A stretch of DNA of 63,627 nucleotides, filler included, from Neolecta irregularis DAH-3 (taxonomy: Eukaryota), in the NCBI GenBank assembly GCA_001929475.1. It is 5 parts of 5 records of this genome, joined end to end, with 100 filler letters (N's around TTAATTAATTAA, not from the genome) between each part and the next. Parts side by side here need not be neighbours in the genome. Positions count along the whole stretch, not along the records: positions 30,954 to 59,832 come from LXFE01004131.1; 4 more parts are not named here. One strand, written 5' to 3'. The notes under the pieces are model-generated. The model did not search any database. It saw nothing but the letters and a program-made list of their open reading frames with translations, and was not told where the DNA came from. Positions 14,170 to 62,387 of the stretch are shown here, one piece after another (within the stretch, counting starts at the first letter, position 1; each line of letters starts with the position of its first letter). The translations under genes and the position numbers were made by a program.

Positions 14170-15561
14170 ATGAATTGGACTGGTGGCAAACGTTCATCCT
14201 ACTCTAAAGTAGCATTGAATATAAAGGCGAAACAACGGGACTTTTTTTCTCAAAACCGTCTCAAGAAACGGCCCCGTAGTTCAAGTGGTACCTCGGGATT
14301 TGTGAGTGTCAAGAAAAGACCAGGAATACAATTCGACATTACTAGGACAATAAAACAACCGCTCCCTCAGTTAGATGATAACGAAGAAGACGAATTATCT
14401 TACCACAAAGAGAGCAAGAAATCTATGGAATTCGAGATAGAACCAGACCAACCCATTCTACCTGCAACCAAGAAACAAAGACTTCTATTACTAGACGACT
14501 GGTCAGGTTTGAATGAACCAACAACGGTATATTTAGAGGCCATCGCTTTCTGAGAATAGCTCTTGCAACCAAAGATCAAAACAAAACGTGTACAAAGAAG
14601 CTTTCTGATTGACAGATATCTTAATCAACATCTGAAAAAGAGTTCCTTGCAAGCCTTCGTGCCTGCTTCTACAGATGAGGTCGCGCCTGCAGGGGCTCAT
14701 TTATCTTCTCAAAGTGGGGAGCAACGGCCAACCTGTTATGCTTATATTCTAGAGAATGGGCCTTGTCAGCAAACACGGGCCGCTTCGTTGCATAGTGTTG
14801 TTTATGATGCACATTTAAGAACTACTCCTTCCGACCCAATTTGTCAAAACTACCAAGTAGAAAAGCCATACATTCCTACATCACCCCTGAATCCATATTT
14901 GAAAGGGCTACAGTCAAAGTCTCCGCTCATCGTTCCAAAGGAACAAACGTACATTCATTCGAGCTCACCTGCGTCCACGGCTTGGAGGGCATTCGAACCA
15001 GATACATTTGTAAAAATACCTGAGAACTCACTGATAAGGAATCAAGAAGACAGTGAATGGTTAAATTTTGTGAGTGTTGTATCAGGAAGCCATACTGAAA
15101 AGATGGAGAGAACGAGAGTTGAAGGAAGAAACAACCCAGGTATTGAATTGGGTGAAGACGCACAACCGTTTGCTCCAGGAGACGAGATGAGCGATGAACC
15201 GCATACCTCTATAGATAAAAGACCCTGCTTTCTGCAGTTCAAGGAGGCGATGGTACTACCGGTCTGTTCAAGTTCAACGGAAATATGCGATCGCGAAAAC
15301 AGTGGATTGGGAAGTGACATGGACAAAAGCTCTGGGCTAGCCATTTCACTTAATGAGTCCTTGACCTCGCCGTATTTAGCTAGAGAAGCAAAGAACTCTG
15401 AGGCATCCTGTGGTTGTTCTGATTTATCAAGTATGTCTACACCGCCACGTGGTGGCATGGGGGCACAGCGAATAATGTTTACGCGGCCAATGAGGGGAGA
15501 CAAGGGGTGGTCCAGAAAGATGTGTGAACATTCGGATCCAATTAGAGATTGGAACGACTGA
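14170..15561 (+). CDS. HEIP1/REDIC1 (C12orf40)-like protein, putative meiotic crossover factor
   Basis: N-terminus MNWTGGKRS..IKAKQRDFF..RLK, then a long disordered region. A 33-nt intron (14527-14559) joins the ORFs in frame. Confidence 0.6.
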
Positions 15562-15675
15562 TTGAAGGGTCTATTTAGAGGGGAGAACAGGCGTGGCTCT
15601 ATATATATAAACGCTTGTCCGACAAATACAACGGGTGCAAATTCAGGTTTAGTAGATTCGGTGGTAGTTGGAGAC

Positions 15676-16057
15676 CTAGGGCGAAGGAGCGGAGGCTGAG
15701 TTTGGAGTGTTGGGACGTATTATGCGGGTGCCTGGGAGGAGGAGAGGATTGAAGTGTCTGTCGCAATCTGCATAGCTCTGGCCCAAGCCAAAGCCCAAAC
15801 CAATCCAAGCGGGCCAAGTGCGGCCTGGGCGGGTCAACGGGGGGGAGCGACTGGATGGGGAGAGGCACGTTTGAAGAGGACGACGGAGGCGACGATTCCG
15901 ACAGCGAGACCGAGGCCCGACTTGACGATGCCGTTTGAGAGACAGAGATCCCACTGGAGTGAGGATTGAATAGGGCAGGGGAGGGTCGCACCTTTTCGCC
16001 GAGGAGATCCTCCGAGTGTCGTTGGGGAACGGGAGCCGGAGCGGGGGGCGGAGTCAT
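15676..16057 (-). CDS. MIC10: MICOS complex subunit Mic10
   Basis: SEDLLGEK|WDLCLSNGIVKSGLGLAVGIVASVVLFK|RRTWPAWIGLGFGLGQSYADC; two canonical introns. Confidence 0.92.
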
Positions 16058-16129
16058 CTTGCGGGCAGGAGTTGTGCAGTGCTGTACACATTTAGATAGC
16101 AGTCTGTCGTCGTGGTCTGTCTATAACCC

Positions 16130-16430
16130 TGTTCCTTCTGTCGTTCTGCCTGTTCTTCTGCTACTGCCTGTTCTTCTGCTTCTGACTGTTCTTCTACTTC
16201 TGCTTGTTCTTCTGCTTCTGCTTGTTCTTCTGCTTCTGCTTGCTCTTCTGCTTCTGCTTGTTCTTCTGCTTCTGCTTGCTCTTCTGCTTCTGCCTGTTCT
16301 TCTACTTATGCCTGCTCCTGTCTTTACTTCGACTGCCTATACCGCTACCTTACGCTGCCTTGCGCTACTTTACATTGTCTTACACTGCCTTACACTGCCT
16401 ATACCGCTGCCTACGCTACCTATCCCAGCT
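16130..16430 (+). repeat. Simple tandem repeat (about 18-bp TTCTTCTGCTTCTGCTTG units, then CCTTAC-like units)
   Basis: Directly visible between the divergent MIC10 and PLC1 genes. Confidence 0.9.
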
Positions 16431-16448
16431 GCTCACCAGCCGACCGCC

Positions 16449-19154
16449 ATGTCTGGGCAACCCGCTCCTCTGCGTCAGCTCGCTCCAATCCTCAACGACC
16501 GTCCACAGCCCTCCCTTGTCGTTGCTACTCCTTCCTGCCCCGCTGCATCCCCTCCCAGCTCCCCTGTCCTGCGCCGTGCCCTTGCCCTCTCTCCCGTTCT
16601 CCTTCCCGCCTCAGTTCGTCCACGCCGAGACAGCGGTACCTCTTTCCAGCTCGCCCCGCCCCTCATACGCCGCCTCTCCGGCCGCTCTACCCAAACCCCA
16701 AAACTAGACGCGGGCGGCCCCGTAGTCTCTCGCCGCATCTCCACCGCAGACCTCCCTGCAAATCTCACGGAATTGCCTATTGTCCCAGATGCAATCCGCC
16801 AAGGCACACCCATGCTCCGCTTCACCAGCAGGAAGCGCCAGCAGATCATCATCGGCATCGACCCCCAGACCGCCTGGATCTTCTGGGACCAAAAACCCCG
16901 CTGTATGCTCAACCTCTCATCCTTCCTCTAACTGCAGTCTGCGTAGACAACATACAGGCCATTCGAATTGCTGCAGATGCCCTGGTTGCAAAAAACTTGC
17001 ACGACTTGTACAAAGTCGAAGCTGCTGCCGCAGAACGTTGGTTGGTCATTGTATACCGTACAGAGTCCAATCTCAAAACTCTCCAACTTTTGGCTCCTAC
17101 CCCCGAAATGGCCATAGCCTTTCACAATACTCTCGACAAGTTACATAACTACCGTGTGGAGATGATGGGTGGCTTGGGCCAGACGCCCACTACCTTTGTC
17201 CTAAAACACCATTGGAGCACAATCGAGACTATGGACTTTGACCAAATCCGCAAGCTGTGCAAGAAACTGCATGTCAACTGCTCAAAAAGCTATCTGAGAG
17301 ACAAATTCGATGTATATGCTCTTCTATTTGTCTGCTCACCAATTATAGCAAGCAGATGTCGAGAAGAATGGCTGGCTTGGCTTTTCACAGTTTCAAGAAT
17401 TTGTCCGCTTGATGAAAAAGCGAGACGAAATCGACGAGCTCTTTTCTATTTACAGTACAAATGGAGTGTTGACCTTTGACAGCTTCAAAGAATTCCTCGC
17501 GCGAGAACAAAAAGTCTTTCGCCACGCCTTCAGGGCTAATTAGCAGTGCGAACGCTCCAACAGTGAAGTACTACGCATCTTCAGCAAGTATCAAGTAAAA
17601 TCGCCCGAAGGATTGACCGCAGAAACCTTCCTATCATATCTGCTTTCCAACGACAATCCTGTCATCACGAACGAGTACCGCGAAGAAGACATGCACCGTC
17701 CTCTAAACGAGTATTTCATCTCATCCTCGCACAACACATATCTTTTGGGCCGTCAATTTGCTAGCGAAAGTTCTTTAGAAGCATATATCCGCGTTCTTCA
17801 ACGAGGATGTCGATGTGTCGAAAGTATACAACCTCTCCAATCTATTCTCATAGTCTAGTCGATGTCTGGGATGGCGATAATGGCCCAGAGGTTTACCACG
17901 GAAGAGCATTGTACGATCTCTTGTTATCTACAACTGATCTCTTAGTACTTCCAAGCTACTTTTCGCAGACGTCATTACGACAATTGGAAAATATGCCTTC
18001 GTCGTAACTCCGTTCCCATTGATACTTTCTCTGGAAGTCCATTGCTCCCTCGAGCAGCAACTTTCCATGGTCAATCTTTTGCGGATGATTCTCCGAGATT
18101 CACTTGTAATCGGCCCGTCAGATCCAGGCCTAGCCTTTCTCCCCTCCCCCTCGGACCTTAAATACAAAATTCTCGTTAAAGTGAAAGCTTCGACGCCAGT
18201 CAAAGCAGAGTCCGAACCCGAGACTCTGTCGTCCACTACCTCAACCACAGAGTCTGAGTTTGACTGTGAGATAATGATCAGCGAACAAAACTCTGCAAAA
18301 CAGAAAAAGGGAAAGATTAAAACCAAGATTGCCGATGCTCTTGGAGAACTGGGTGTTTACACACAAGCCTGTCATTACAGAAATTTTGGTCTACCAGGTA
18401 CGTTTGCATTCAGGACTTACCAAGACAAATAGAATCAAAAACCGTCAATCACGTCTTTTCCTTCTCTGAGAAATCGGCTTTGAACGCGAGCAAGGACACC
18501 GATGGACAGCTCGCAAAACACAATATGAAGCATTTGATGAGAGTCTATCCCGGATTTTTACGTCTTACCTCACGCAACTTTGAACCACATACGTTCTGGA
18601 ATCTCGGTGTTCAAATGGTAGCCTTGAATTGGCAGACTTATGACCTTGGATTGCAAATGAATGAAGCCATGTTTGCGATCAACGGTCGACACGGATACGT
18701 TTTGAAATCAGAAATCCTCCGACCAATAACACCTAAACAGCAGGGCAAGGAAGAACTCGGGGATAACTCAAAGAAGGCAAGGTTTGTGGTACAAGTTTTG
18801 TCTGCTCAACAGCTTCCTCGCCCAAAAGGCCTCAAAACGGTGGATCCTTATGTCGTTGTCAGCCTAATTACCACTACCGAAACATTTAAAAGACGCACAG
18901 AATCTGTTGAGAATAATGGGTTCAGTCCAGTTTGGCGAGAGACGCTTTTCTTTTACTATAACTATGCAATCGCCGACCTTGTGTTTGTCCGAATTGAAAT
19001 TTTCAGCAATGAGACGCTTCAGAATGATGTTCTCATCGCCAGCTACTGCGCCAAAGTAAATGCTTTGAAGCATGGCTATCGTCATATTCCTTTATACGAC
19101 ATGCAAGGAGAACAATACCTGTTTTCTACATTATTTTTGAGATTTGGGAAGTAG
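16449..19154 (+). CDS. PLC1: Phosphoinositide-specific phospholipase C (PH/EF-X-Y-C2)
   Basis: [55 protein letters not shown] and a C2 domain; six canonical introns. Confidence 0.95.
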
Positions 19155-30853: not shown

Positions 30854-30953
30854 NNNNNNNNNNNNNNNNNNNNNNNNNNNNNNNNNNNNNNNNNNNNTTA
30901 ATTAATTAANNNNNNNNNNNNNNNNNNNNNNNNNNNNNNNNNNNNNNNNNNNN
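30854..30953. other. Artificial contig spacer
   Basis: N + TTAATTAATTAA + N. Confidence 0.98.
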
Positions 30954-35361: not shown

Positions 35362-38300
35362 ATGCGCGAAGTACCCACACCAGAGTCGGCTTCTTCTGCT
35401 CGGGACAGCTCCCGTCGCCAGTCTTCTCGTAGACAGAGCGTCATTTCAGAGGAGTCCAGCGCTGAACCCATATTGGACTACCATGTTCAGGCGACAGCAA
35501 CAAGTCGGAGAAGATCCAAGGCGGATCTCCTGCAGAAACCGAAGAAATCCAAAGGACCCATTGTCAAAGACTCCCGCGATGGAATCTCAGTCGAACTCCC
35601 AGATGGAAGGGTCCTTAGACCCGATGGTATTTCAAAAGCCCCATACTAAGGTACACTCCGCTAATTCACAAAGATTGTGTCTATTTGATTTGCGAGCCGC
35701 CACAAGAACCATACTATCTTGCACGGATTATGGAATTCACTCGATCAGACAACTCTATACCCAAAATTGATTCTATTCGCGTTAACTGGTTCTATCGTCC
35801 TCGCGACATTCATCGAAGCCACAGCGACAATCGTTACCTTTTTTCAACAATGCACAGCGATGTATGTCCTTTATCATCTGTACGTGGTAAATGTCAAATA
35901 AAACATCGGAGTGAGATCGCAGACCTCGAGGAGTATAAGAAGTCCGAGGACTGTTTTTACTACGAACGCATGTTTGATCGATATATTCAACGACACTACG
36001 AAGTAGTTCCTACAAAAGATATCCGAAATGTCCCTGAAAACGTTGGCACTGTCCTTCGTGATCGCTGGAAATTCGTTGCTGTTGAACAAGGTAAGGGTAA
36101 GGACTTGTGCATGCAACAACGAGGATGTACGAAATGTGGAAGCTGGTGTGCCAAGTATGCCTCATCACCTACAAGACCATTCTCTCACCCCACAGTGCTG
36201 AATCTGTTCGATGTGCGGTTTGCCAAAATGACTTCCATATGTTATGCATAACTCCCCCCTTATTAAAAAAACCTACGAAGGGCTTCGCGTGGACTTGTGC
36301 TCCCTGCGCTCGCGAGAAGGACAAGATCCTCGAAGCTAATTCGTTGCCCGATTTCCGTTTCAATAAACCCATGAGCAAAAGTGAATCATCCGTCGCTCCA
36401 GAGGAGGACAATGATACTGAACAGGCGCCCACTCGTAGAGAGACTCCAACACATGATGTATCAGAGCCTACAAAGGAGCAGAAATACGCGAACTCGTTAT
36501 GGCCTATACGATATCTCGGTATCCACTGTAAAATCGAAGATGCATTGGATTATGACGATCGAATATATCCAAGAGCTCAAAGTCGCATCGGGTGGAGACA
36601 TCAAGCCAATGTAGTTGAATGGTTCGGTCAACCCGTCAAATATGTGGATAGGAAAAAGAATGTCAGGAAGAAGAAAGGAAGTATTGTCAATCACCTTATG
36701 AAAGAGGACTCGATGGAAATTGACGAGAAGCCTCTGGGGAGATGGGTCCAAGAGACCCCAGTTGGTTATAGTATCGAACTCTTTTTAGTACTTATACTAA
36801 CAAGGAGCTCCTCGGGGGGAAGATCTCACCTCGACCTTACTTTACAGACCAGGGCCTATGGATACCCGCGAAATGGATGAATTCATTCTTTCGACAAAGC
36901 CAATTGCAGATAAACTCAAGGTTCAGTTGTATACTACAAATTATCTCGATGCCGTTGTAAATGTATTGCATTTGACCAACTTTGAGAAGGCGAAAGCCAC
37001 AGAAGAACTCCAAAGATTTACTCGAAAACATCTGAAAGAACCAACGTTCACGGGGCCGGAACGAGAAAGATTCGCAGAAGGTGTTAAGAAGCATGGAAGC
37101 GAATTACATCCAATCAGTTCTGAGCTCAAATATCAAAGCTCTGGTCAATGCGTACGTTTCTGGTACCAGTGGAAGAAAACCCCGATTGGTCGCGAAATAT
37201 GGGGATCTTACGAAGGACGGCGATCGAAGAAAGTCGATACGACGAAGTCTACTGCTGATCTCGGTGATAGCAGCGACGATTCCGCTTACGATAACAATAA
37301 GCTCGTGCGGCGAAAAGTTTCTTGCAAGTTTTGTTCGACCACTCGCAGTGAAATTTGGAAAAAGGCCCCCGGACCATCAACGAATGAAAGCATTCCAGCA
37401 TTATGTACTAGCTGCGCTACATTATGGAGAAAATATGCAGACACATACGAACCTAAAGTCGATAAAATAAAAAAACGAAAAGCAGAAGAAGAAATCAGCG
37501 AAGATGGCACTATTGTCAAAAAGAAGTCTAAGAATGGCAGAAAGAAAAGCCTTGCAGAGAAGGACGACAAAAAAGAAGCCGAAGATCTTGAAGAACCACC
37601 AAAGCTTTGCAATATTTGTGCCGTTTCCGAGCCGCTTTCATTTATGGCGACATGCGAGACCTGCAAAATGTCTGTTCATGAAGGTATGTGCGAGGATTCC
37701 GATTTTAGTCAATATTTAGGCTGTTATGGTATCCAGAATTCTTTTAATCGATGGAAGTGCGACGTTTGCGTCAACGAAAAAGCACCAGAAGTCTCATTGG
37801 TAAATTATCTACAAAGGCTGTTCTTGAGATCTAGATTTACGATTGTGTTTTGTGCTCGCAGATATCTGAAGAGCGACAACCTCCACACCCTCTCAAAAGG
37901 ACGATTGGTAATAATTGGGCCCACATAACATGTGCTGTATGGATACCGGAAATTCGGTTTGGCGACGTAACTCTCTTAGAACCCATAGAAGGCATCGGAT
38001 CCTTGCCAACTGCAAGATGGAAATCTGTAGGACGTCTTGCGAATTATCAGCTGATCAATAGATATGTTCGATATGCAAGATTGAAACGGGCGCTTGTACA
38101 AACTGTCACAGTTGTCATATTCCTTTCCATACGACCTGTGCTATTCAAGCAGGATATACGGTTGGGTTCGATATTCAACCAATTAAAACGAGTCGTAAAG
38201 ATCAAGTCATCACTGTTTCTTTTGGGGGAGAAAGCGGCCATATGAGCCCCGCCATTTGGTGTCGAAATCACGATCTCAAGAAGACTACTGTCCATCCCAT

Positions 38301-42240: not shown

Positions 42241-43385
42241 GGTGTTTGAAAGACAATCCTGACCAATGGGCCAAACCTGTATAGTATAGTTGCTCGGTGG
42301 TTAGTCGGATTGCGTCACAGCTTGTTTATGACGCGACCCCACACGCTGCTGAAACAAGCCGTTTGAAACTGGTATTGCATAAGAAATCAATAGTTTTTTT
42401 TTTAAATTCGATTTTCTAAGAGGAATCACTTGGGACCGATATCAGTAATGCACCCCTCTTCATTCGATAATCAGAAATTACAAAGATCAACTAGAACCAC
42501 TCTCTAGGGACTCAAGAATACCCCACAACCACCACCGGCGATCGCGTGCAGACACCCAGCTGAAATGCAGTGGCTTCGGGAGACAAGTAACATCGCGGAA
42601 GACCCCAGGAAGCAACCAATGTCTGGATGGGGGCATTGGTGGGTCGCACAGCCAATTCCGCCAAAGATGAAACCAATAGAGGCAGGATGAGGGCGTATAA
42701 GATTGTTATATAAATACTGCCTGGTCTGCTAGTCAGACCAGGCTTTAACAGCATAGTAATATACCTAGTTACTTTTCAAAGGCAACCATCGTATATCAAA
42801 TTATCCAACCCAAGTCTATTCAAGCCAACAGTCCGGACACTTTAAAGCTCACACACGCTAGTGTTTCAAGACTATTATCTTTCATGTTGTCGTATTTCTC
42901 TATTCACAGTGTTTTTTTATCCGCAAGCATCTATGAAAATGAACTGTAATTCAATCATGCCATAACTCGTCTCAAGATACTACTTTTCTAGCTGATATTA
43001 TTAATATCAAGCACCGGTATATGGTATATAAATAATTAAATGACAGGCAAACCTCGATCGATGGGTTATTCATAACCAATATCTTTAGAAATTGAAATTG
43101 TTCAGGTTGATGTCTAATATACTCGGTACAAGATACTATCAGATACTTGCTTTGTAATAAAAGAAGTTGACGAGTCCAAAACCGTGTCATCCGCTACAAA
43201 TTTTTGGATGAATTTATTCACAGGTAGTTCACGGTCACGGAGATATACCAAAGATCGCCAATGTGATTTGATTCAGAATTGATGGACAATATATCGGATA
43301 AATTGAAGGTCAAGAGAATCTTAATAGGGTGGAAAGAATACGTGTCTCGTCTCACCCACCTCGTTCTTTCTTCAACATCAAAAAA

Positions 43386-44578
43386 ATGGCATGCGGTTTA
43401 TCCAATATTTCTCAGATCGCCTCGGATGCATGTTCAGCGGTACTATCTCTATGTCTTCCCGAGCCCTCTGTTTCAATTAATCGAAAATCGTACAAGATAA
43501 TTCGGTTATTGGGCGAGGGGTAAATCTAATATAATAACAAATTTCTCACCTTTAGAGGATTCTCGTTTGTTTATCTTGTGCACGAGACTTGTTCTGGGAA
43601 TTTATTTGCGTTGAAGAAAATACGGTGTCCGTATGGGGATGTTGCTGATGCGATGAGGGAGGTGGATTCCTATAAAATGTTTAACCACAAGTCATTAATT
43701 CAGTGTGTGGTACTGGTTCCCTTTGGATGTGGGTTCACATTTAAGGACTTTAGTACGAATCAAGAACGGGATGGATCAAAATCGCTGTATATTTTATTAC
43801 CGTATTATCGGGTATGTGTGTTTTGATGGGGGGATCTCATTTGCAAAGCGGGGCAACCTCCAGGATGCAATCAATTCTAATTTGATCAACCGGACGGCAT
43901 TTCCCGAACAGGATCTGCTGCTGCTGTTCAGGGGGGTGGCACTGGCGCTGCTGGAGCTTCACGAGTACCGGATCAGCCCGCTCCCTGTGGAAGAGGATGA
44001 TGCGAATGGTTCGTCGCGGCCTTTGATGGCGAACACGAACGAAGGGGACCTTGTTCCGTATGCGCACCGGGACCTGAAGCCGGGTATTTCTTTAGCGCTG
44101 GGGGCGTCTGACAGTAGGAAATATTATGATTGGGGATGACGGGACTACGCCGATTCTGATGGACTTTGGGTCCCTTGTGCCGGCGCGGGTGACGATTGGC
44201 AGTCGGAGGCAGGCGCTTGAGCTGCAGGACACCGCTGCTGAGCAGTCTACGATGTCGTACCGGGCGCCTGAGCTGTTTGACGCGAAGACGGGGATGGAGG
44301 TGAGCGAGAAAGTGGATGTGTGGAGTCTTGGTGGGTGTCTGTTTGCATGCATGTTTGGGTACAGTCCGTTTGAAACGGAGGGCACCAGCATCCCGCTGGC
44401 GGTGATGAACGGGGCGTGGAAGTTTCCCGAGGCGCGGGCGGGCGAGTGGAGCGAGGGTGCCAAGCTGGTGGTGCGGCGGTGTCTGGTCGTGGATCCCAAT
44501 GCGCGTCCAGATGCGAGACAGGTGGTACGTCTCATCGACAGGGCGCTGGAGGGCACATCCATGCCTAGTGTTGACTGA
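43386..44578 (+). CDS. ENV7: NAK/STK16-family Ser/Thr kinase (start may be 43282)
   Basis: LLGEGGFSFVYL, ALKKIRC, PYAHRDLKPGN, ILMDFGS and STMSYRAPELFD. Confidence 0.9.
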
Positions 44579-44760
44579 ACTTGACCTGACTTGGAGTTGA
44601 GTGACTACTTCGACTTTCCTGACTGGCCTGACCTGACTTATGACCTGACTTATGACCTGACTGGCTTGATCTGACTGGCCGGCCTGACCGACCCGGCCTG
44701 GCCTAACTTTGACCTGAACAACTAGACTAACCTGGCTGACCTGTCTAACCAACCCGACCT
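44572..44760 (+). repeat. Low-complexity CTGAC/GACCT repeat tract
   Basis: Degenerate units such as gacctgactt and ctgactggc between ENV7 and LYS2. Confidence 0.85.
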
Positions 44761-44781
44761 CGTCTCTATCGCCTCCCTGCC

Positions 44782-47700
44782 ATGCCCTCTCCACTCCCCG
44801 CCGACCATCCCCGCCCGAATCCCCTCCGCACTTCACCCGCTGCACAGTCCTTCTCCCTCGACCAGCACACGCCGTCTTCTCTCCTCCTCGCCGCCCTTGT
44901 CGCCCTGGCACACCGTCTCACCGGCGACGACCACGTCTGCATCGCCACCAACACCCAGACTGCGCCCCACGTAGTCCTGCGAGTGCCCGTCACGCCAGCC
45001 CTGCCCTTCGCTGCCCTCCTCGCCCTCGTTGCAAACGCATACCCCAGCCTTCTGCATCTGCTCACACCCCAGCTCCTACAGAATGCCTCAGAGTCAATTG
45101 CACTACAACGTGCCCATGATCCGTTGCCTGCTGATCTTTGTCTCGGATTCTATACTTGCTCAGACACGCCATCTTGCCCCACAGATATATCCATTTTCGC
45201 CCAGAATACGCACCCAACCACACTACAAGTACACTACAATCAGCTTTTATTCTCCCCAGACCGCATAACCTACCTCGTACAACAACTCACTCAGATAGTC
45301 TACCAAGTCGCCCTCGATAGAAATCAAAAAGTTGGCTCAATTTCATTACTCACTCCTGCTCAAAAACTGCTTCTCCCAGATCCAACTGTCGACTTGCACT
45401 GGTCGCTCTTTCAAGGCCCAATTCAAGACATTTTTGCCTCTAATGCCCACAAACATCCAGATCGGACTTGTGTTGTGGAAACTCCACTCACAAAAGATAC
45501 ACCGTCCAGAATCTTTTCCTACCGCCACATAAATGAAGCTTCAAACATCGTGGCTCATCATCTCATCAACAAACAAATCAAAACAGGCGATGTAGTCATG
45601 GTATTTGCATACAGAGGTGTCGATTTAGTTATCGCAGTCATGGGCGTATTAAAAGCAGGCGCTACCTTTTCAGTCATCGGTCAGTCTTGCAATAAATTAC
45701 CAACTAATTGAAAAGACCCAGCTTATCCTCCTTCTCGGCAATGTATCTACCTCAAAGTCGCACAACCAGCCGGTTTAATCGTTCTTTTAAAAGCTGGAAA
45801 CATTCAAGATACAGTGAGACAATATATCACCGACGAATTGAACATTAAAGCTGAAATCCTAGCTTTGTATATTCAAGATGACGGCAAACTAATAGGACAA
45901 TCGGATTCCTTTTTTTCAAAAGAAATAAAATTTGCAAGCGTGCATCCGGGTATTGTCGTCGGTCCAGATAGTATACCCACATTAAGCTTCACAAGTGGAA
46001 GTGAAGGAATTCCGAAAGGCGTTAAAGGACGACATTTTAGTTTAACATTTTATTTTCCGTGGATGTCTCAAGAATTCGGGTTATCCCAGAATGACAAATT
46101 CACAATGTTGAGTGGAATAGCTCATGATCCTATTCAACGCGATAGTATACATATTCTGTGTTATGTTCTAATATTAGTTTTTACTCCATTGTTCCTTGGA
46201 GCTCAGTTGATAATTCCCACGGCCGACGATATTGGAACACCAGGACAATTAGCTAAATGGATGGCTAGATCCGCTGCAACAGTAACTCATTTGACACCAG
46301 GTACTCTTCTCCCCTTGTTCAACTAACACCTCTAGCAATGGGTCAGCTTCTTTCTGCTCAATGTGAAACTCAGATTCCGAGTTTACATCACGCCCTCTTT
46401 GTAGGTGATATCCTTACAAAACGAGATTGTCTTCGCCTTCAATCATTTGCCAGAAATTGTTCAGTGGTAAATATGTACGGAAGCACCGAAACCCAACGTT
46501 CTGTATCCTTTTTCCTGGTCCCGTGTTTATCTTCCGCCCCTACATTTCTCAATTCGCTAAAAGATGTCATTCCAGCTGGAAAGGGAATGAAAGATGTCCA
46601 ATTATTAGTTATTAATCGGAATGAACCGAGCCAACTTTGTGGAATTGGTGAATTAGGTGAAATTTATGTTCGAGCAGGTGGTCTTGCTGAGGGTTACCTG
46701 CAACTTCCAGACGTTACCAAAGAAAAATTTGTAGAAAATTGGTTTGTGGAAAAAGGATTTTGGAAGAATGAAGTATTTGGTAAAGAGTGGGAGGACCATT
46801 GGTTTGGTCCACGCGATCGGTTATATCGAACCGGTGATCTAGGACGATATCTACCCGATGGAAACGGTATTTCTCTTGCCTGTTGATATATTGACCCTCG
46901 AGTGGAGTGCTCTGGACGAGCAGACGATCAAGTGAAAATTCGAGGATTTAGAATTGAGTTGGGTGAAATTGACACTTTTTTAAGTCAACATCCATTTATT
47001 CGGGAAAACATCACACTTGTCAAGCGTGACAAGAAGAATGAACAAGATATTTTAATCTCGTACATTGTACTTGAACTAAAGTCGGATTTAAAAGGGCTGG
47101 TAGATGGCGATATTAATGATTTACAGGGTGATGGGATTATCCTCGATTTGAAAAAATATGAGAAATTGATCAAGGATGTCAAGGAATATTTGAAAAATAG
47201 GTTACCGTCCTATGCTGTTCCCACAGGTAGACCCCCACACCATTAATAATCTAATTGATTGTACAGTTATACTCCCGTTGCACCGGTTCCCACTTAACCC
47301 CAACGGTAAAATCGATAAACCCTCTCTTCCATTCCCTGATTCAATAACACTTACCTCCGAATCATCTTGCACAGAATCAAATTTAACCCCTACTCAACAA
47401 CTCATTTTCAATATTTGGAAGAATTTATTACCCCATACTCGCTCAATTTCTTTGCAAGATGATTTTTTTGAAATTGGAGGTCATTCGATTCTCGCTACTA
47501 GATTAATATTTGAAATTCGCAAGGAATTCGGGATCAACGAAATCTCCTTGCACTCCATCTTTTTAAATCCTACTATTAAAAGTTTAAGTCTTCAAATCGA
47601 TAATTTGGGGAATTCCGAAAAGAGTAGAAATGAATGTCAACAAGATTGCATTTTATACGCTGAAGATGCGCAGGAATTAGTTGACGGGTTGGATGATAGC

Positions 47701-49183
47701 TATGCCCCTGTTTCAATTACGCCTAAATTTCAAAATGTATTGGTTACCGGTTCCACTGGATTTCTAGGCGTCTTTATCTTACGTGATCTTGTTGAACGCA
47801 AGAGTGGAATCGGAAAGATATTCGCTCATGTTCGTGCGAAAAATGCACTAGATGGAATTACTCGATTAAGGAATAGTTGTTTGGCTTATGGTGTCTGGCA
47901 TGCAGATTGGCCTTTGAGAATTGAAGTTGTTACGGGGGATCTTACTCAAGAGCGACTTGGCGTTGATGTTGATACTTGGAGACAGTTGGCGGGAGCTGTG
48001 GATATTGTTATTCATAACGGTGCCTTGGTTTGCTTGTTTTTAATGTGTATTATTGACGGGTTAGGTTCATTGGGTGTATCCATATAGTAAATTACGAGCT
48101 ACAAATGTTCTTGGCACGATTGAAGCATTGTCATTTTGTTCTTTTGGTAAACCAAAGACTTTTATCTTTGTTTCATCAACATCGGTTTTGGATACAGAAT
48201 ATTATGTCCGATTGTCCGATACCGTTGTCGACCAGGGGTTTCCGGGAATCAGTGAAGATGACGATTTAAGCGGGTCAAAGACAGGTTTAAGCACAGGGTA
48301 TGCGCAGTCAAAGTGGGTTGGGGAATACCTTGTGCGAGAAGCTGGAGCTAGGGGACTTACTGGATGTATTGTCCGGCCTGGGTATATTACTGGAGATTCA
48401 AAATCTGGCGGTATATTTCTTCAAACTTTTGTCATTAATTCGCAGCAACAAATACTGATGATTTCCTGATGAGACTGATCAAAGGGTGTCTCCAACTCGG
48501 TCTTGCACCAGACATTCATAATTCTATCAACATGGTTCCCGTAAATCACGTCGCTCGAATCGTGACTGCCTGTTCCTTGAATCCACCAGAGTACTTTGGT
48601 GTAGCTCAGGTTACAGGCCACCCCCGAATGCGCTTCGATCAGTTATTTTCCATACTGTCGAGCTTTGGATATGATGTTGGTNNNNNNNNNNGTCGTGACT
48701 GCCTGTTCCTTGAATCCACCAGAGTACTTTGGTGTAGCTCAGGTTACGGGCCACCCCCGAATGCGCTTCGATCAGTTATTTTCCATACTGTCGAGCTTTG
48801 GATATGATGTTGGTCATACTGACTACATACCCTGGAAAGAAGCTCTTGAACGACACGTTTTCCAGGAATCAAAAAATAACGCTTTATACCCACTTGTTCA
48901 TTTCCTTCTAAACGATCTTCCTCAAAATACAAAAGCGCCTGAACTCGACGATATCAACACTCAAACTGCGCTAAGGAAAGATTTGCAGTATACAGGTGAA
49001 GACCTTTCACACGGCGCCGGCGTAGGAGAGGAGGATTTGGGAATGTACTTGGCTTATTTGAATGCCATTGGATTTTTGAGCGCTCCAACTTTGGCTAGCA
49101 AATTGAAGTTGCCGAGCGTTAGTATCGACGAGTCGATTTTAAAATCTCTTGAAAAGGTTGGAGGAAGAGGCGCAAAAGTTTAG
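44782..49183 (+). CDS. LYS2: L-2-aminoadipate reductase (A-T-R, NRPS-like)
   Basis: [45 protein letters not shown] (PCP), VTGSTGFLG and GYAQSKW. Contains a duplicated segment around a 10-N gap. Confidence 0.96.
48560..48811 (+). other. Assembly overlap duplication across a 10-N gap inside LYS2
   Basis: 48560-48681 is repeated from 48693 with an ACA/ACG difference. Confidence 0.85.
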
Positions 49184-58968: not shown

Positions 58969-59649
58969 TTATTCATCCTTGTAGAATTTCTTGAGCCATA
59001 TTTCTGCTTGCCTGTACTCTAACCGGACCTGTTCAAGGGTGTCTTTGATGCGTCTGAGGCAGAGGTCTGGATCGTTCACGGAATGGGCTCCTGTTTCGTC
59101 TTTACCAGCGCCGAAATTCTGGATTCGTTCGCAGGAAGCCTTTACTTTTGTGAGGCCAAGGGCAGCGGAAGAGCCTTTTAGGAAGTGACCGAGGGAGCCG
59201 AGGGTGTTGAGGTCTGCTTTTTCTCTGATAGAATTAGCGGGATTGGAGGATGAGAAGAATACAGGGCTGCTTGTATTTTATGAAAGGTGTCTTCAGCCTG
59301 GTCAAAGTAGTGCCAGACGATGCCCTTTGAGAATTCTCGCTCTCCGTCGTCGTCCATTTCAAGGAGCTGGTCAAAGATGGATCTGTCCATAAAGTCGTGT
59401 TCATGGTCGGTGTCGGTGTCAGTGTCAGTGTCTTTGTCTTTGACTTTGACTATGTCTTTCTCTTTGTCTTTGACTTTGTCGTGGTCGGTGTCTTTGTCAT
59501 GGTCAAAGTGGCCATGGGTGGATGCTATTGAGTGGGAGGAGCTTGGGGGGTCTTTCGAAGCGGAAGCGGCTGTTGAGGAAGCAGTAGCCGGGCGGGGCTG
59601 CGAGTGGGTCAGTGGGGGAGAGCGGGCGCGGGGATACAGGGGCGGGCAT
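58969..59649 (-). CDS. YPD1: Histidine phosphotransfer protein (HPt)
   Basis: FDQLLEMDDD..REFSKGIV, LGHFLKGSSAALGL and CERIQ; N-terminal DK/DT repeat; two introns. Confidence 0.92.
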
Positions 59650-59744
59650 GGTGGATGGGCGAGAGACAGACAGGGCCGGGGGTGGGAGAGAGAGAGAGAG
59701 GGTGGTGGAGGCACCTTGCAGCCTGCTTGGCCAAGCAACGCCCA

Positions 59745-59832
59745 CGCGGCATCTCTATGTCTATAAAGCGGCATCTACGCCATCACGGCATGTATCATGT
59801 CTGTAGCGGCATCTACGCCATCACGGCATGTA
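59745..59832 (+). repeat. Tandem repeat (about 38 bp, GCGGCATCTACGCCATCACGGCATGTA...) at the contig end
   Basis: Repeated copies run into the spacer. Confidence 0.75.
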
Positions 59833-59932
59833 NNNNNNNNNNNNNNNNNNNNNNNNNNNNNNNNNNNNNNNNNNNNTTAATTAATTAANNNNNNNNNNNN
59901 NNNNNNNNNNNNNNNNNNNNNNNNNNNNNNNN
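59833..59932. other. Artificial contig spacer
   Basis: N + TTAATTAATTAA + N. Confidence 0.98.
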
Positions 59933-60837
59933 CGCGTTGTGCGCCTTCATGTGCAGCCCGCACGCGTTGCTGCCGGTCAGCGCGGCGGGCAGCGGGCAGC
60001 GGGCGCGCACCACAGCGAGTGCCGCTTGTCCGGCGTGCGGCGCCACAGCGGCGTGGTGTCTGTGCCGCAGTTGGAGCAGCGCGGCTTGCGGTCCGCCACA
60101 GGCGGGGGCGCGGGTGCGGGTGCGGGTGCGGGTGCGGGCGAGGACGAGAACGCGCAGTCGCAGCCGTCGTCCAGGCACGGCGTGTCCCATGGCGTGTCCC
60201 ACGGCGTGTCCCACGGTGGTGCGAGGTGTGGCTGGGCATACCGCCAGGCGCTGTATGCAAAGGCGGTGGCGGCCGGCGAGAGCTGCGGGCTCGATGACAC
60301 ACGGCTCTTGCCAGGACTGTCCAGCCCAGGGAGACTCTGACTCTGACTGTGACCGAGACTCTGACTGTGACCGAGACTCTGACTGTGACTCTGACTCAGA
60401 CTCCCAGTCATGTCCATACTGTCAGCCATACTGTCAGCCATACTGTCGGCCAGGCTGCCCGCCATACTGTCAGCCAGACTGCCAAAGCTCGGCGTGCGCG
60501 GCTCCCCGCGCATCCACGGGTGCAGGTGCATCGGAGATCCACTATCGCCCGCCTCAAACTGCCCCTCCACGTTCAGGTAGTCGTGCATGCTGTCGTCATA
60601 CACCGAGAATAATGCCGGCTCCCGCGCAAACGCCATCCTGTTGGCTGCTGCAGGCCGGCGCGCACTCCCGCTTTTAAGCTCCTGCCCCGGATAGACCAGA
60701 TTCGCAAAATCGCCAGGGTTCTTCAGTCCACCTCGTTTCCCACCTGCATCGCCGTTAGCTGCCGTGACGCAATCTGCGGCCGCAGGTGGGACATGCGTGC
60801 TTCTCTCCCCTTCCAAAGTAAAAGGCCATACGTTCAA
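59933..60837 (-). CDS. GATA zinc-finger transcription factor, 3' truncated by the gap
   Basis: [28 protein letters not shown] (C-X2-C-X18-C-X2-C), split by a GT-AG intron; start uncertain. Confidence 0.85.
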
Positions 60838-61116
60838 TTGTGAACCCCGCTATTTATGCGATCATCCCGAGGGCTGCGATGCAAGGTTCGCAAGTGCGCA
60901 AGCATGGAAAATCATCCTTCTTGGAGGTGTCACATCCTCTCCTCAAAACCGCCCCACGTCCTCCTCCTGCCCGGTTTCCCCCGACCCCCTAGAAATAGCG
61001 CCTCCACACCAAAACCCAGGCTACATACGCCAGTCCCCTTGGATTGAATCCTGCGATGCAGCCACTCCATGCCCCGCTCTGCCTTTCAGATAGCTCCCTG
61101 CTGCACACAGATCAAG

Positions 61117-62387
61117 ATGGATACTCGGCACAAACATGTGAGCCCTATTCCAGAATCCTTACAGATCTCTTTAGACCCGGTTTTCGAACGACGATCGCGT
61201 CGCAAAATGCTCCACGACCCCTGTATACCTCAAATTGAAGTATCAAAGTCTCGAACCAAGACAAGCAAGATATCAAAGAGAGTGTCAAGACCTTGTAAAC
61301 AGAATGGTCTAGATCCTATAATCCCATCTTCAAACCGCCTAACGGTAATTTACCGCTGGTGCACACTACGCTAAACCCTGCAAGCTGAGAAATCCTCGCC
61401 GCGTTGGCATCTTCAGCAAGGGCAAAGCTTCATCGCCTGCAAAGCCCACAGGACGTACATGCAATTCCTCTCCTGTTTTGACCTCTGCAGTCCCAGACCT
61501 TGCATTCTCCGAAATGAAGTTTCTCCGAAAATCATTCTCTACATCTCAAATAGTTAATTCAGAACCTCATGCCCCCACAATTCTGCCCGCTAAAAGACAA
61601 AGGCAAAATAGTACCTCTTCAGAGAAAGCATACACATGGAGTAACAGCGACACCCAGCCATCGAAAATTCACGCAACCCTCGAGTACGCCACTTGCGAAA
61701 TGGAAGCCAACTCTCCAATAGCATATAGTTCAATAAACATGGTCAATCACAATCCATACCAAACTGTAAATGATTTGCCGGATGGCAATCATGCTGCAAA
61801 AAAACTTGATTTGCCTAGCTCACATGACGCTGACATCAGTATTCCAGAGCAGCTAAAGGCTAGGAAAACGCCGAGTATCAAAGAGGCAGGTTTCCCCTTG
61901 CTTGATTTCCTAACTTTAGAGTTCAGGTTCGCCTCTTTCTGCATTGCTTCGAGAGTTTCAAGAGGCAACCCGGACAGCATGGGTCACTGCCAGGTTACAA
62001 ACCAATTCTCTTTCTGATGACTCTCGACAAAGAGGGCAAGACTATCATTATCAACAGACTAAACAGCCTCCTCGCTGCAAGCTTCCAAGACACGATACTT
62101 TAACTGAAAGCTACAATGAACCTTTCCATGAAGCCCCTGACTTGGGACAAGATACAGACCTGAACTTTGACGAAATGGATTCTTCTCTTATTGACAGCTC
62201 ATACCCAGCACACCCACAGATTCTTCACTCTGACGAAAAGGAACCCCNNNNNNNNNNCCAAACTTCTCTTATTGACAGCTCATACCCAGCACACCCACAG
62301 ATTCTTCACTCTGACGAAAAGGAACCCCTCGAAACCTATCTTGATGTTCCCTATCACGGATTTTGGAAAAGACATCGCCCGTATTAA
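61117..62387 (+). CDS. Conserved fungal hypothetical protein (possible PRR19-like)
   Basis: Spliced motifs FERRSRRK, RLT|LRNPRRVGIFSKGKAS, LPDLAFSEMKFL and C-terminal GFWKRHRPY; three canonical introns; overlap duplication around a 10-N gap at 62248-62257. Confidence 0.7.

What the first reader, a model, noticed from the sequence alone, without database searches (positions are those of the whole stretch)
43550..45600. GC-rich island with a G-to-C skew flip centred on a simple repeat, independent of gene orientation (hotspot-like signature)
Seen in sequence: the 3' half of ENV7 becomes abruptly GC-rich and G/T-skewed. The 5' end of LYS2 is GC-rich and C/A-skewed. The switch sits on the CTGAC repeat (44572-44760). 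Both genes are on the + strand, so coding or transcription strand cannot explain the flip, and codon usage returns to AT-rich within about 1 kb. Inference: left-G/right-C is the polarity expected from cytosine loss on resected 3' ssDNA either side of a recurrent double-strand break. Raised GC fits GC-biased gene conversion. This suggests a long-lived meiotic hotspot marked by a repeat. A replication-associated skew is the alternative.
Basis: partly seen in the sequence, partly recalled or inferred. Interest (0 to 1): 0.7.

Follow-up and report, generated by a model that had tools for sequence, protein, structure and literature searches.

The report
GC-rich, strand-skewed islands centred on repeats
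A fungal genome carries short GC-rich islands, each centred on a simple repeat, in which G piles up on the strand pointing towards the centre; this looks like the scar of a recurrent DNA break, probably a meiotic hotspot, but recombination itself was not measured.

Summary
At 43.6-45.9 kb, GC rises from about 0.40 to 0.65. GC skew flips from +0.33 to -0.46 on a CTGAC-type repeat. The effect is strongest at four-fold sites, and introns follow it. An independent DNA contig and a spliced contig span the centre, so it is not a chimeric join.

A second full island lies at 16.1 kb, a half-island at a contig end (59.2-59.8 kb), and a weaker one on a separate 2.5-kb contig. All share the polarity and have tandem repeats at or near the centre.

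Fungal genes are known to be C-biased at 5' ends and G-biased at 3' ends (PMC3315797), which gives this polarity at any intergenic region. Even so, 19 ordinary intergenic regions here show no flip. In the small contig the flip lies inside a gene whose 5' end is G-rich at silent sites.

Only one strong base rises per flank, so this is not plain GC-biased gene conversion. Best reading (0.45): a recurrent break-and-resection centre, probably a meiotic hotspot. Genome-wide and population tests could not be run.

The parts
43386..44578 (+). ENV7/STK16-like protein kinase gene, CDS join(43386..43519, 43556..43709, 43746..43811, 43849..44083, 44118..44578). Exons 4-5 lie in the island.
   Evidence: Translation has no internal stop and carries HRDLKPGN and DFG motifs. 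Pkinase hit on the last exon. All four introns are skipped as GT..AG in the spliced contig of run X2. Orthologues are named env7 / serine-threonine kinase 16.
43550..44600 (+). Left flank: the + strand is G-rich (the strand running 5'->3' towards the centre).
   Evidence: GC skew +0.2 to +0.68 in 60-bp windows. Third-position skew is +0.4 to +0.68 from 43506 onwards. Four-fold sites have G .63 and C .13. Introns 2-4 have skew +0.25, +0.62, +0.33.
43880..45050 (.). GC-rich core plateau, about 1.17 kb, GC 0.55-0.73, with edges 60-100 bp wide.
   Evidence: GC3 is 0.65-0.88 in ENV7 exons 4-5 and 0.72-0.82 in the first 85 LYS2 codons.
44572..44760 (+). Central degenerate tandem repeat (units such as TGACCTGACTTA). 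It covers the ENV7 stop-to-LYS2 start spacer and is the point of the skew flip.
   Evidence: Tandem Repeats Finder rows 44618-44679 and 44629-44662. CTGAC occurs 9 times here and GTCAG 0 times. D peaks at 44601. The stretch is covered without a break by the spliced contig, 44117-45036.
44601..45850 (+). Right flank: the + strand is C-rich. The skew outlasts the GC enrichment by about 0.8 kb.
   Evidence: Skew -0.35 to -0.69. Third-position skew is -0.4 to -0.78 out to about 45850. Four-fold sites have C .58 and G .14, then C .37 and G .09.
44782..45679 (+). LYS2 (alpha-aminoadipate reductase) exon 1. The gene continues to about 49183.
   Evidence: 100% identical to an NCBI protein named L-2-aminoadipate reductase [Neolecta irregularis DAH-3]. 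AMP-binding, PP-binding and NAD_binding_4 hits on downstream exons. The amino-acid-implied skew of residues 1-100 is -0.48/-0.47, against -0.11/+0.05 (sd 0.10) in 13 orthologues.
45037..45072 (+). 36-nt GC..AG intron at the right edge of the GC core. It is read as coding in the public protein.
   Evidence: Skipped in the spliced contig of run X2. GC 0.61, skew -0.55. The residues are present in P0002.
15430..17203 (.). Second full island with the same anatomy. The G-rich left flank is non-coding. Central repeats lie at 16128-16432. The C-rich right flank is PI-PLC exon 1, starting at ATG 16449.
   Evidence: GC up to 0.68; skew +0.3 then -0.5. D=0.68 at 16121. An 18-mer is repeated 10.2 times, plus 10- and 20-mers. 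PLC exon 1 four-fold sites have C .55 and G .06. There is no codon periodicity in 15600-16100.
59231..59832 (.). Half-island at the right end of the 28.9-kb contig. It becomes G-rich towards the contig end, with tandem repeats. It holds the 5' part of a YPD1-like HPt gene on the - strand.
   Evidence: GC up to 0.66, skew up to +0.57. Tandem Repeats Finder rows 59406-59498 and 59769-59829. Spacer at 59833-59932. Calling the gene YPD1-like rests on my reading of the translation, not on a search.
59933..61285 (.). Island on a separate 2.5-kb contig. GC reaches 0.76, and a weaker flip lies at about 60300.
   Evidence: D=0.46, within the shuffle null maximum of 0.47. The left flank is not skewed at silent sites.
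59977..60636 (-). GATA-finger gene exon that contains the flip. ATG at 60636. The in-frame tandem repeats at 60319-60495 are absent from the closest relative.
   Evidence: GATA Pfam hit. The relative P0242 aligns from its first Met, and the repeat block falls in a gap of the relative. In codons 1-47, four-fold sites have G .71 and C .14 on the coding strand, n=21.

Best explanation
Each island is the compositional scar of a recurrent DNA double-strand break at the central repeat. The break is most likely a stable, promoter-proximal meiotic recombination hotspot.

Proposed mechanism (inferred, not shown):
1. The break is resected 5'->3' on both sides.
2. For about 1 kb the strand that ends 3' at the break is single-stranded.
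3. Damage on that tail, and error-prone gap filling opposite it, turn other bases into G on the tail strand (C>G and A>G-type changes).
4. The left flank therefore becomes G-rich and the right flank C-rich on the + strand.
5. Because the products are G:C pairs, the same process, with or without a fixation bias towards GC, raises GC.
6. Repeated faulty repair at the break point itself generates and remodels the short tandem repeats.

Shown here: the anatomy, the polarity, the scale, the silent-site and intron signal, the protein drift, and the restriction to a few loci.
Inferred: the break, its meiotic nature, and the polymerase chemistry.
For: (1) RECURRENCE. The three strongest + to - flips in the window (D 0.68, 0.67, 0.46) coincide with the three GC-richest places. 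The correlation of D with GC is 0.41, reached by 0 of 2000 circular shifts. 0 of 200 block shuffles reach the first two flips.

(2) A DISCRETE CLASS. 19 ordinary intergenic regions have mean D +0.026, sd 0.145, 11 of 19 positive, p=0.45. The two full islands have +0.53 and +0.74.

(3) NEUTRAL SITES CARRY IT. The signal is at four-fold sites, in introns and in the non-coding left flank of the island at 16 kb.

(4) POLARITY AND REACH. Both match the strand-asymmetric mutations in the 2-kb flanks of human meiotic breaks. C>G, A>G and C>A peak 700-800 bp off centre, and the authors attribute C>G to REV1 (PMC7615360, passages). Mouse resection tracts average 1100 nt (start of the abstract of 10.1101/2019.12.17.876854).

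(5) ONE BASE PER FLANK. Only G rises on the centre-directed strand (.15 to .63), while C falls (.23 to .13). A strand-specific mutation process predicts this; symmetric gene conversion does not.

(6) REPEATS AT THE CENTRES. 18 of the 25 Tandem Repeats Finder rows fall in the four island intervals, which cover 8.5% of the window. The repeat block in the GATA gene is absent from its closest relative.

(7) NOT KEYED TO A GENE START. On the 2.5-kb contig the flip lies about 340 nt inside a gene. The first 47 codons of that gene are G-rich at silent sites, the opposite of the fungal 5' C-bias rule.

(8) PROTEIN DRIFT. LYS2 residues 1-100 are shifted 3.7-5 sd towards amino acids with C-rich codons. 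ENV7 differs from a close relative at 7 of 118 codons outside the island and 28 of 231 inside it. The island differences lean towards GC in this genome (mean +0.52 per codon at positions 1-2).

(9) PRECEDENT. GC-rich intergenic peaks in Cryptococcus are experimentally tied to meiotic hot spots and gene conversion (PMC3390403, abstract and passages).

(10) NOT AN ASSEMBLY ARTEFACT. A DNA contig of run X1 spans 42500-45165 with 2 differences. That run may come from the same sample as the assembly.
Against: - No recombination, polymorphism or polarised-substitution data could be obtained.
- The polarity is equally what the known fungal gene-end skew gives at any intergenic region. Only the small-contig case separates the two models, and it is weak: D=0.46 lies within the shuffle null, there are only 21 four-fold sites, and its left flank shows no silent-site skew (+ strand -0.07).
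- The A>N component reported in humans predicts a mirrored AT skew. That is not seen. T is at least as common as A on the coding strand in ENV7, in the LYS2 core and in PLC exon 1 alike.
- The GC core is a plateau with sharp edges, not a decay from the centre.
- Recalled and not checked here: tetrad studies find little or no GC bias of gene conversion in several fungi.
- Only three or four loci from 63.6 kb were examined.
Confidence: 0.45

Rival explanations
1. An extreme form of the known transcription-linked gene-end skew of fungi. Strong, possibly bidirectional, promoters with CT-rich repeats would impose a C-bias on the non-template strand of whatever is transcribed away from them. That would include an antisense transcript running back into the 3' half of ENV7.
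For: - A 5' C-bias and 3' G-bias at four-fold sites and in UTRs, with a flat AT skew, is documented in most unicellular fungi (PMC3315797).
- A C-skew at transcription start sites in plants and fungi is reported in PMC555766 (listing and start of the abstract only).
- Both full islands and the half-island include a gene 5' end with a C-rich coding strand: LYS2, PI-PLC and the YPD1-like gene.
- At the two full islands the repeats lie 17-22 bp upstream of the downstream ATG, pyrimidine-rich on the coding strand.
- The AT skew does not flip, as in that paper.
Against: - 19 other intergenic regions, six of them divergent promoters, show no significant flip.
- It gives no reason for GC3 of 0.7-0.88 reaching 0.7 kb into an upstream gene.
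- That paper reports a negative correlation of skew with GC content; here the skew peaks where GC peaks.
- The GATA gene has a G-rich 5' end at silent sites, with the flip inside the gene.
- No antisense transcript is shown, and the only RNA-like contig carries no strand information.
Confidence: 0.22
2. A mitotic fragile site. The central repeat itself breaks or stalls forks in vegetative cells. Resection and error-prone repair then write the same strand-asymmetric pattern without any link to meiosis.
For: - The anatomy is the same as in the best explanation: central repeats, symmetric flanks of about 1 kb, one base enriched per strand.
- The repeats are lineage-specific and therefore unstable.
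- Recalled and not checked here: repeat-induced mutagenesis with strand-biased clusters around fragile motifs in budding yeast.
Against: - The repeats are short (60-300 bp) and imperfect, with 71-100% matches, which would make weak fragile motifs.
- GC enrichment of this size is more usual for meiotic processes.
- Nothing here separates mitotic from meiotic breaks.
Confidence: 0.1
3. A replication origin or narrow initiation zone, made of GC-rich, G4-flanked DNA, whose leading/lagging asymmetry produces the skew jump.
For: [quoted passage not shown] Origins therefore give a downward GC-skew jump, the polarity seen here (PMC3459929, passages).
- The islands are spaced 16-28 kb apart.
- Every canonical G4 motif in the window lies in an island flank, on the strand pointing towards the centre.
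Against: - Replication jumps in yeast are about 9% in amplitude and fade over about 20 kb. Here the jump is about 70-80% and fades within 1.2 kb.
- No TA-skew jump is seen.
- The G4 motifs may simply follow from the G-richness.
Confidence: 0.1
4. An artefact or foreign DNA: a mis-assembly at the repeat, a contaminant, or a segment acquired from a GC-rich donor.
For: - The core has sharp edges.
- One island coincides with a contig end.
Against: - Independent contigs of a DNA run and of a spliced run cross the centre.
- Both genes are complete, spliced, conserved fungal genes whose GC-poor and GC-rich parts are continuous.
- The same two-sided anatomy recurs at other loci.
- CpG observed/expected is 0.74-0.95 in the islands against 0.93 in the background, so this is not a methylation-escape island either.
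Confidence: 0.03

Closest known systems
[quoted passage not shown]
   Same: The coding strand is C-biased at gene 5' ends (LYS2, PI-PLC) and G-biased at a 3' end (ENV7). The skew is present at four-fold sites and beyond the coding region. It affects amino-acid usage. The AT skew does not flip.
   Different: There the pattern is a genome-wide average over most genes, and the skew correlates negatively with GC content. Here it is confined to 2-4 of about 22 intergenic regions. It is far stronger (silent-site skew about 0.6-0.8), coincides with GC spikes and central tandem repeats, and in one case sits inside a gene against the 5' rule.
GC-rich intergenic recombination hot spots of Cryptococcus (Hsueh 2006, seen in a search listing only; Sun 2012, PMC3390403, abstract and passages)
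   Same: Short GC peaks lie in intergenic DNA between conserved genes. Conversion tracts are 0.6-2.1 kb, similar to the island width.
   Different: There recombination was measured. No strand skew or central repeat came up in the passages I read. Here recombination is unmeasured.
Strand-asymmetric mutagenesis around human meiotic breaks (Hinch et al. 2023, PMC7615360; passages)
   Same: Same polarity (the forward strand loses C left of the break, and the complement applies on the right). Same reach of 1-2 kb. C>G and A>G classes create G on the tail strand. Indels occur at the centre.
   Different: The human signal is a de novo mutation spectrum at short-lived PRDM9 hotspots, and the passages read describe mutations rather than standing base composition. 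Here the signal is standing composition, and the predicted A/T asymmetry is not mirrored.
Replication-associated skew jumps in yeasts and the large skew jumps at Candida albicans centromeres (Marsolier-Kergoat 2012, PMC3459929; passages)
   Same: The downward jump polarity of yeast origins. The amplitude (74%) and short range (about 3 kb) of the C. albicans centromere jumps resemble the islands.
   Different: Origin jumps are about 9% and fade over about 20 kb. Three or four islands in 64 kb cannot all be centromeres.
Runaway GC evolution altering conserved proteins in gerbils (PMC6573468 and PMC7403616; search listing and start of abstracts only)
   Same: A local compositional drive strong enough to change conserved protein sequence, as in the LYS2 N-terminus and the ENV7 C-terminus.
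   Different: The gerbil case is a large chromosomal region attributed to GC-biased gene conversion. Here the units are about 1.2 kb and strand-asymmetric.

Membership tests
Fungal gene-end GC skew (5' C-bias, 3' G-bias) | Coding strand C-biased at 5' ends and G-biased at 3' ends, including four-fold sites | tested here: met
   LYS2 codons 1-85 have C .58 and G .14. PLC exon 1 has C .55 and G .06. ENV7 codons 119-349 have G .63 and C .13.
Fungal gene-end GC skew (5' C-bias, 3' G-bias) | A general property of most genes of the genome | tested here: not met
   19 non-island intergenic regions have mean D +0.026, 11 of 19 positive, p=0.45. Gene limits were approximated from ORFs and Pfam hits. 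Only 63.6 kb was examined.
Fungal gene-end GC skew (5' C-bias, 3' G-bias) | The sign follows the position within the gene, with 5' always C-biased | tested here: not met
   GATA gene codons 1-47 have four-fold G .71 and C .14 on the coding strand (n=21), and all third positions G .53 and C .28. The start codon is supported by the relative P0242.
Meiotic recombination hotspot with GC-biased gene conversion | Locally elevated crossover or gene-conversion rate | not testable with these tools
   No genome is held. Reads are served only as contigs. No population data.
Meiotic recombination hotspot with GC-biased gene conversion | A kb-scale peak of GC at silent sites | tested here: met
   GC3 is 0.65-0.88, against 0.40 in the background.
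Meiotic recombination hotspot with GC-biased gene conversion | AT-to-GC bias that raises both G and C | tested here: not met
   In each flank only one strong base rises. On the left C goes from .23 to .13. On the right G goes from .15 to .14.09 and .06.
Meiotic recombination hotspot with GC-biased gene conversion | Excess of AT-to-GC substitutions relative to a sister lineage | tested here: inconclusive
   Protein level only. The 28 island differences from P0122 lean towards GC in this genome (mean +0.52), and several are derived by outgroup comparison (I>A, Y>W). No sister DNA was found.
Break-flank strand-asymmetric mutagenesis (resected 3' tails) | Mirror-image base asymmetry about a point, with the 3'-tail strand depleted of C | tested here: met
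   The flips at 44601 and 16121 exceed all 200 shuffles. C is depleted on the centre-directed strand in all flanks measured at silent sites except the left flank of the small contig.
Break-flank strand-asymmetric mutagenesis (resected 3' tails) | Reach comparable to resection tracts (about 1-2 kb) | tested here: met
   The third-position skew runs from about 43506 to about 45850, which is 1.1-1.2 kb on each side.
Break-flank strand-asymmetric mutagenesis (resected 3' tails) | Mirrored A/T asymmetry (A also lost from the tail strand) | tested here: not met
   The left-minus-right AT-skew difference is +0.42, -0.05 and +0.04 at the three flips. At four-fold sites A is lower than T in the left flank, but also in PLC exon 1 and the LYS2 core on the right.
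Yeast-type replication origin skew jump | A downward GC-skew jump of about 9% that fades over about 20 kb, with a TA-skew jump | tested here: not met
   The polarity is met. The amplitude is about 0.7-0.8 and the reach about 1.2 kb, with no consistent AT jump.
CpG island (methylation-free island in a CpG-depleted genome) | CpG observed/expected high in the island and depleted in the background | tested here: not met
   Background 0.93; islands 0.74-0.95.

The most novel reading that the evidence does not exclude
The islands are footprints of evolutionarily persistent break hotspots. Gap filling opposite damaged bases on the resected 3' tails, for example dC insertion of the Rev1 type, writes G into the tail strand. 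The same process at lower intensity would be the unexplained cause of the widespread 5'-C / 3'-G skew of fungal (and perhaps plant) genes. On this reading Neolecta shows the saturated state, in which skew, GC content, minisatellite birth and protein drift all come from one repair pathway.
Probability: 0.15. Interest if true: 0.85.

Novelty: new variant of a known kind. Interest (0 to 1): 0.6.

Why it matters
Two known but unconnected facts meet in one sharply defined structure. The first is that fungal genes carry opposite GC skews at their two ends, for reasons never settled. The second is that meiotic breaks mutate their flanks in a strand-specific way.

If the islands are break hotspots, base composition alone would map several hundred hotspots in an unculturable fungus. 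That figure is my extrapolation from 3-4 islands in 64 kb to the 14.5-Mb genome. It would also offer a mutational explanation for gene-end skews. And it would show that such a process can override selection on conserved enzymes such as the LYS2 N-terminus.

If the islands are instead extreme promoters, they are still a useful, strong case for finding the mechanism of the fungal gene-end skew.

Neither the genome paper nor four literature searches turned up a description of these islands. In the main text of PMC5309816 the terms 'GC-rich', 'skew' and 'recombination' each occur 0 times. bioRxiv supplements and the paper's own supplements were not seen and could bear on this.

Tried and rejected
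- WHOLE-GENOME TEST. No genome is held for this window, so the genome-wide polarity test could not be run.
- EARLIER FINDINGS.
- SISTER-SPECIES DNA. A metagenome scan with the close ENV7 relative P0122 returned 14 loci. None was close: the longer matches were 23-36% identical, and short finger-motif matches reached up to 75%. Substitutions could not be polarised at the DNA level.
- SEQUENCING RUNS. Two holders were listed and none is on record as RNA. One (X2) nevertheless behaves as spliced. Both are served as contigs, so strand, depth, heterozygosity and transcript ends could not be read. Antisense transcription remains untested.
- STRICT INTRON MOTIF SCAN, meant to orient genes. It found only 9 candidates and was dropped.
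- CODON-PHASE ANALYSIS OF THE 2.5-KB CONTIG. All six frames are open in the GC-rich part, so it was uninformative alone. It was resolved only through the relative P0242.
- CpG-ISLAND EXPLANATION. Rejected.
- C-TO-T DEAMINATION AS THE MAIN DRIVER. Rejected, because T falls and the AT skew is not mirrored.
- SYMMETRIC GENE CONVERSION AS THE SOLE DRIVER. Rejected, because only one strong base rises per flank.
- WEAK GC PEAKS at 7012-7852 and 35224-35666. They show no clear flip and were not counted as islands.
- LITERATURE. A search for a hotspot 'nucleotide skew' paper found no occurrence of the term. My recollection of a purine/pyrimidine skew at mouse hotspots is therefore unverified and was not used.

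Full report
WHAT THE WINDOW IS

The first LYS2 exon translates to a protein 100% identical to an NCBI record named L-2-aminoadipate reductase [Neolecta irregularis DAH-3]. The next best hit is 47% identical. The genome paper gives 14.5 Mb, N50 16 kb and 44% GC. Its main text contains no occurrence of 'GC-rich', 'skew' or 'recombination' (PMC5309816, passages).

The window is not one molecule. Spacers of N44-TTAATTAATTAA-N44 lie at 10930-11029, 30854-30953, 59833-59932 and 62455-62554. They cut it into pieces. One piece, 30954-59832, is exactly the 28,879 bp on record as the contig of that protein. The finding lies well inside this contig.

A + to - skew flip stays + to - after reverse complementation, so the arbitrary orientation of contigs does not affect polarity.

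THE OBSERVATION

It is confirmed.
- In 300-bp windows GC climbs from about 0.40 to 0.59-0.65. GC skew goes from +0.17..+0.33 to -0.41..-0.46.
- At 60-bp resolution the GC-rich core is a plateau from about 43880 to 45050 with edges of 60-100 bp. The skew domain is wider, about 43550-45850.
- D is the skew of the left 800 bp minus the skew of the right 800 bp. It peaks at 44601 with D=0.67, above all 200 shuffles of 100-bp blocks (null mean 0.35, maximum 0.47).
- The flip sits on the degenerate CTGAC-type repeat (Tandem Repeats Finder 44618-44679; CTGAC 9 times, GTCAG 0 times).

Gene models: ENV7 is join(43386..43519, 43556..43709, 43746..43811, 43849..44083, 44118..44578). LYS2 starts at 44782.

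A contig of a DNA run spans 42500-45165 with two differences. A spliced contig of a second run skips all four ENV7 introns, runs unbroken from 44117 to 45036 across the stop codon, the repeat and the start codon, and then skips a 36-nt GC..AG intron at 45037-45072 and the later LYS2 introns. The region is therefore not a chimeric join and both genes are on the + strand. The DNA run may be the sample the assembly came from, so it is not fully independent support.

SILENT SITES

Four-fold-site composition:

| Region | A | C | G | T |
|---|---|---|---|---|
| Background (30 ORFs with Pfam hits, 3344 sites) | .29 | .23 | .15 | .33 |
| ENV7 codons 119-349 | .06 | .13 | .63 | .17 |
| LYS2 codons 1-85 | .12 | .58 | .14 | .15 |
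| LYS2, next 202 codons | .32 | .37 | .09 | .22 |

Introns follow the gradient. ENV7 introns 1-4 have GC .22.44.43.53. The LYS2 GC..AG intron has GC .61 and skew -.55.

Two points matter for mechanism.
- Only one strong base rises in each flank, and the other falls or stays at background. The 'GC-rich island' is really a G island on whichever strand runs 5'->3' towards the centre.
- T falls rather than rises on that strand, and the AT skew does not flip (left-minus-right AT-skew difference +0.42, -0.05, +0.04 at the three flips). Simple C-to-T deamination is therefore not the main driver.

THE ISLAND IS ONE OF SEVERAL

The only three + to - flips with D above 0.3 coincide with the three GC-richest places in the window. 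The correlation of D with GC is 0.41, reached by 0 of 2000 circular shifts.
- Island at 15430-17203. It has a non-coding G-rich left flank with no codon periodicity. Central 18-mer and 10-mer repeats lie at 16128-16432. PI-PLC exon 1 forms the right flank, with four-fold C .55 and G .06. D=0.68.
- End of the 28.9-kb contig (59231-59832). This is a half-island, G-rich towards the break and carrying repeats.
- The 2.5-kb contig 59933-62454. GC reaches 0.76 and a weaker flip lies at about 60300. Its D of 0.46 is within the shuffle null.

18 of the 25 Tandem Repeats Finder rows fall in these four intervals, which cover 8.5% of the window. All canonical G4 motifs of the window lie in island flanks on the centre-directed strand. 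That may simply follow from the G-richness.

McLean and Tirosh (PMC3315797, parts 1-2 of 4 read) showed the following for most unicellular fungi. Coding strands are C-biased at 5' ends and G-biased at 3' ends. This holds at four-fold sites and in UTRs. There is little A/T change. Amino-acid usage is affected.

It follows that tandem, divergent and convergent intergenic regions all give a + to - flip. Two + strand genes therefore do not exclude a gene-linked cause, and shared polarity among islands is not diagnostic.

WHY THE ISLANDS ARE STILL NOT JUST THAT PATTERN

(a) From ORFs and Pfam hits I drew an approximate map of 24 genes. At the 19 intergenic regions outside islands, D averages +0.026 (sd 0.145, 11 of 19 positive, p=0.45). 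The two full islands give +0.53 and +0.74. The islands are a discrete class.

(b) That paper reports a negative correlation of skew with GC content. Here the skew peaks with GC.

(c) On the 2.5-kb contig the flip is inside a gene. A relative, P0242, aligns from its first methionine to a - strand GATA-finger ORF with its ATG at 60636. The in-frame repeat block at 60319-60495 falls in a gap of the relative. The 47 codons before the repeats have four-fold G .71 and C .14 on the coding strand (n=21), the opposite of the 5' rule.

This is the only case that separates the models, and it is weak. The flip is borderline and the sample is small. The short left flank shows no silent-site skew; its skew there comes from Pro/Ala/Ser-rich coding.

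EFFECTS ON PROTEINS

LYS2 residues 1-100 imply a position-1/2 skew of -0.48/-0.47. In 13 orthologues the values are -0.11/+0.05 (sd 0.10). The difference vanishes beyond residue 250, and the N-terminus is truncated and poorly alignable.

ENV7 differs from a close relative (P0122) at 7 of 118 codons before the island and at 28 of 231 within it. The island differences lean towards GC in this genome (mean +0.52 per codon at positions 1-2). Several are derived by outgroup comparison, such as I>A and Y>W. The drive is therefore recent enough to have acted since that split.

WHAT IT IS NOT

- Not a methylation-type CpG island. CpG observed/expected is 0.74-0.95 in the islands and 0.93 outside.
- Not symmetric GC-biased gene conversion alone.

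MECHANISM

The best fit is a recurrent double-strand break at the repeat.

In human hotspots, de novo mutations in the 2-kb flanks are strand-asymmetric. C>N and A>N fall on the forward strand left of the break, where that strand is the single-stranded tail. C>G, A>G and C>A peak 700-800 bp off centre. The authors attribute C>G to REV1, and indels concentrate at the centre (PMC7615360, passages). Mouse resection tracts average 1100 nt (start of an abstract).

Accumulated over a long time at a stable site, such changes would enrich G on the tail strand, deplete C, raise GC, and generate tandem duplications at the centre. That is the anatomy seen here.

GC-rich intergenic peaks are experimentally linked to meiotic hot spots and gene conversion in Cryptococcus (PMC3390403, abstract and passages). 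A fungal precedent for part of this therefore exists.

Points against:
- the non-mirrored A/T pattern;
- the plateau shape of the core;
- the complete absence of recombination data.

RIVALS

- Transcription-linked gene-end skew in extreme form at strong or bidirectional promoters (0.22). Both full islands and the half-island include a gene 5' end. At the two full islands the repeats lie 17-22 bp upstream of the downstream ATG, pyrimidine-rich on the coding strand. Antisense transcription is untested.
- A mitotic fragile repeat (0.10).
- A replication origin (0.10). In yeasts the leading strand is A+C-rich, which gives the right polarity. But the jumps are about 9% over about 20 kb, against about 75% over 1.2 kb here (PMC3459929, passages).
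- Artefact or foreign DNA (0.03).

VERDICT

This is a real, recurrent, sharply structured compositional feature. Neither the genome paper nor searches turned up a description of it. It combines two known kinds, fungal gene-end skew and GC peaks at hot spots, in an extreme, repeat-centred, strand-asymmetric form.

The proposed mutational chemistry needs revising from C loss plus gene conversion to gain of G on the tail strand. The genome-wide, sister-species and population tests remain to be done.

Noticed in passing
10930-11029, 30854-30953, 59833-59932, 62455-62554: N44-TTAATTAATTAA-N44 spacers show that the window is several contigs laid end to end. Neighbouring pieces need not be adjacent in the genome. 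10-N gaps also occur at 48682-48691 and 62248-62257.
   Followed up: yes
45037-45072: A 36-nt in-frame GC..AG intron is spliced out in the RNA-like contig but translated in the public LYS2 protein. Orthologues have residues aligned there, so it may be a young or alternative intron. Its non-canonical GC 5' splice site fits the local drive towards GC.
   Followed up: partly
44782-45100: The LYS2 N-terminus lacks the conserved first 25 or so residues and a stretch of about 35 residues present in most orthologues, and is rich in Pro/Ala/Leu/His. A conserved enzyme appears to have been remodelled by the island.
   Followed up: partly
59977-60636 (- strand): The GATA-finger gene carries lineage-specific in-frame repeats (SLADSM-, SQSLGH-, PWDT- and PA-type) that are missing from its closest relative. 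The second half of the finger continues in another frame, which suggests an intron next to the contig end.
   Followed up: partly
15827; 59606-59624; 60104-60118 (+ strand); 16538; 44999 (- strand): Every canonical G-quadruplex motif in the 63.6-kb window lies in an island flank, always on the strand pointing towards the island centre.
   Followed up: partly
59406-59498 (- strand): The YPD1-like HPt gene has a hexamer repeat encoding Asp/Lys/Thr runs just upstream of its conserved domain, inside the half-island. The gene name rests on my reading of the translation, not on a search.
   Followed up: no
7012-7852 and 35224-35666: Two weak GC peaks (0.51-0.52), one in a fasciclin-domain gene and one at the 5' end of a BAH-PHD-Myb gene, show no clear skew flip. 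They may be faint or decaying islands, or unrelated.
   Followed up: partly
62835-62920: A near-perfect 17-mer tandem repeat (5.1 copies, 97% matches) lies on the last, short contig piece, outside any GC island.
   Followed up: no
8451, 21111, 30611, 48401: Moderate + to - flips (D 0.26-0.30) occur at ordinary GC content. The one at 21111 lies at the 5' end of a - strand kinase gene, next to a divergent intergenic region. They may be the weak generic gene-end skew.
   Followed up: no
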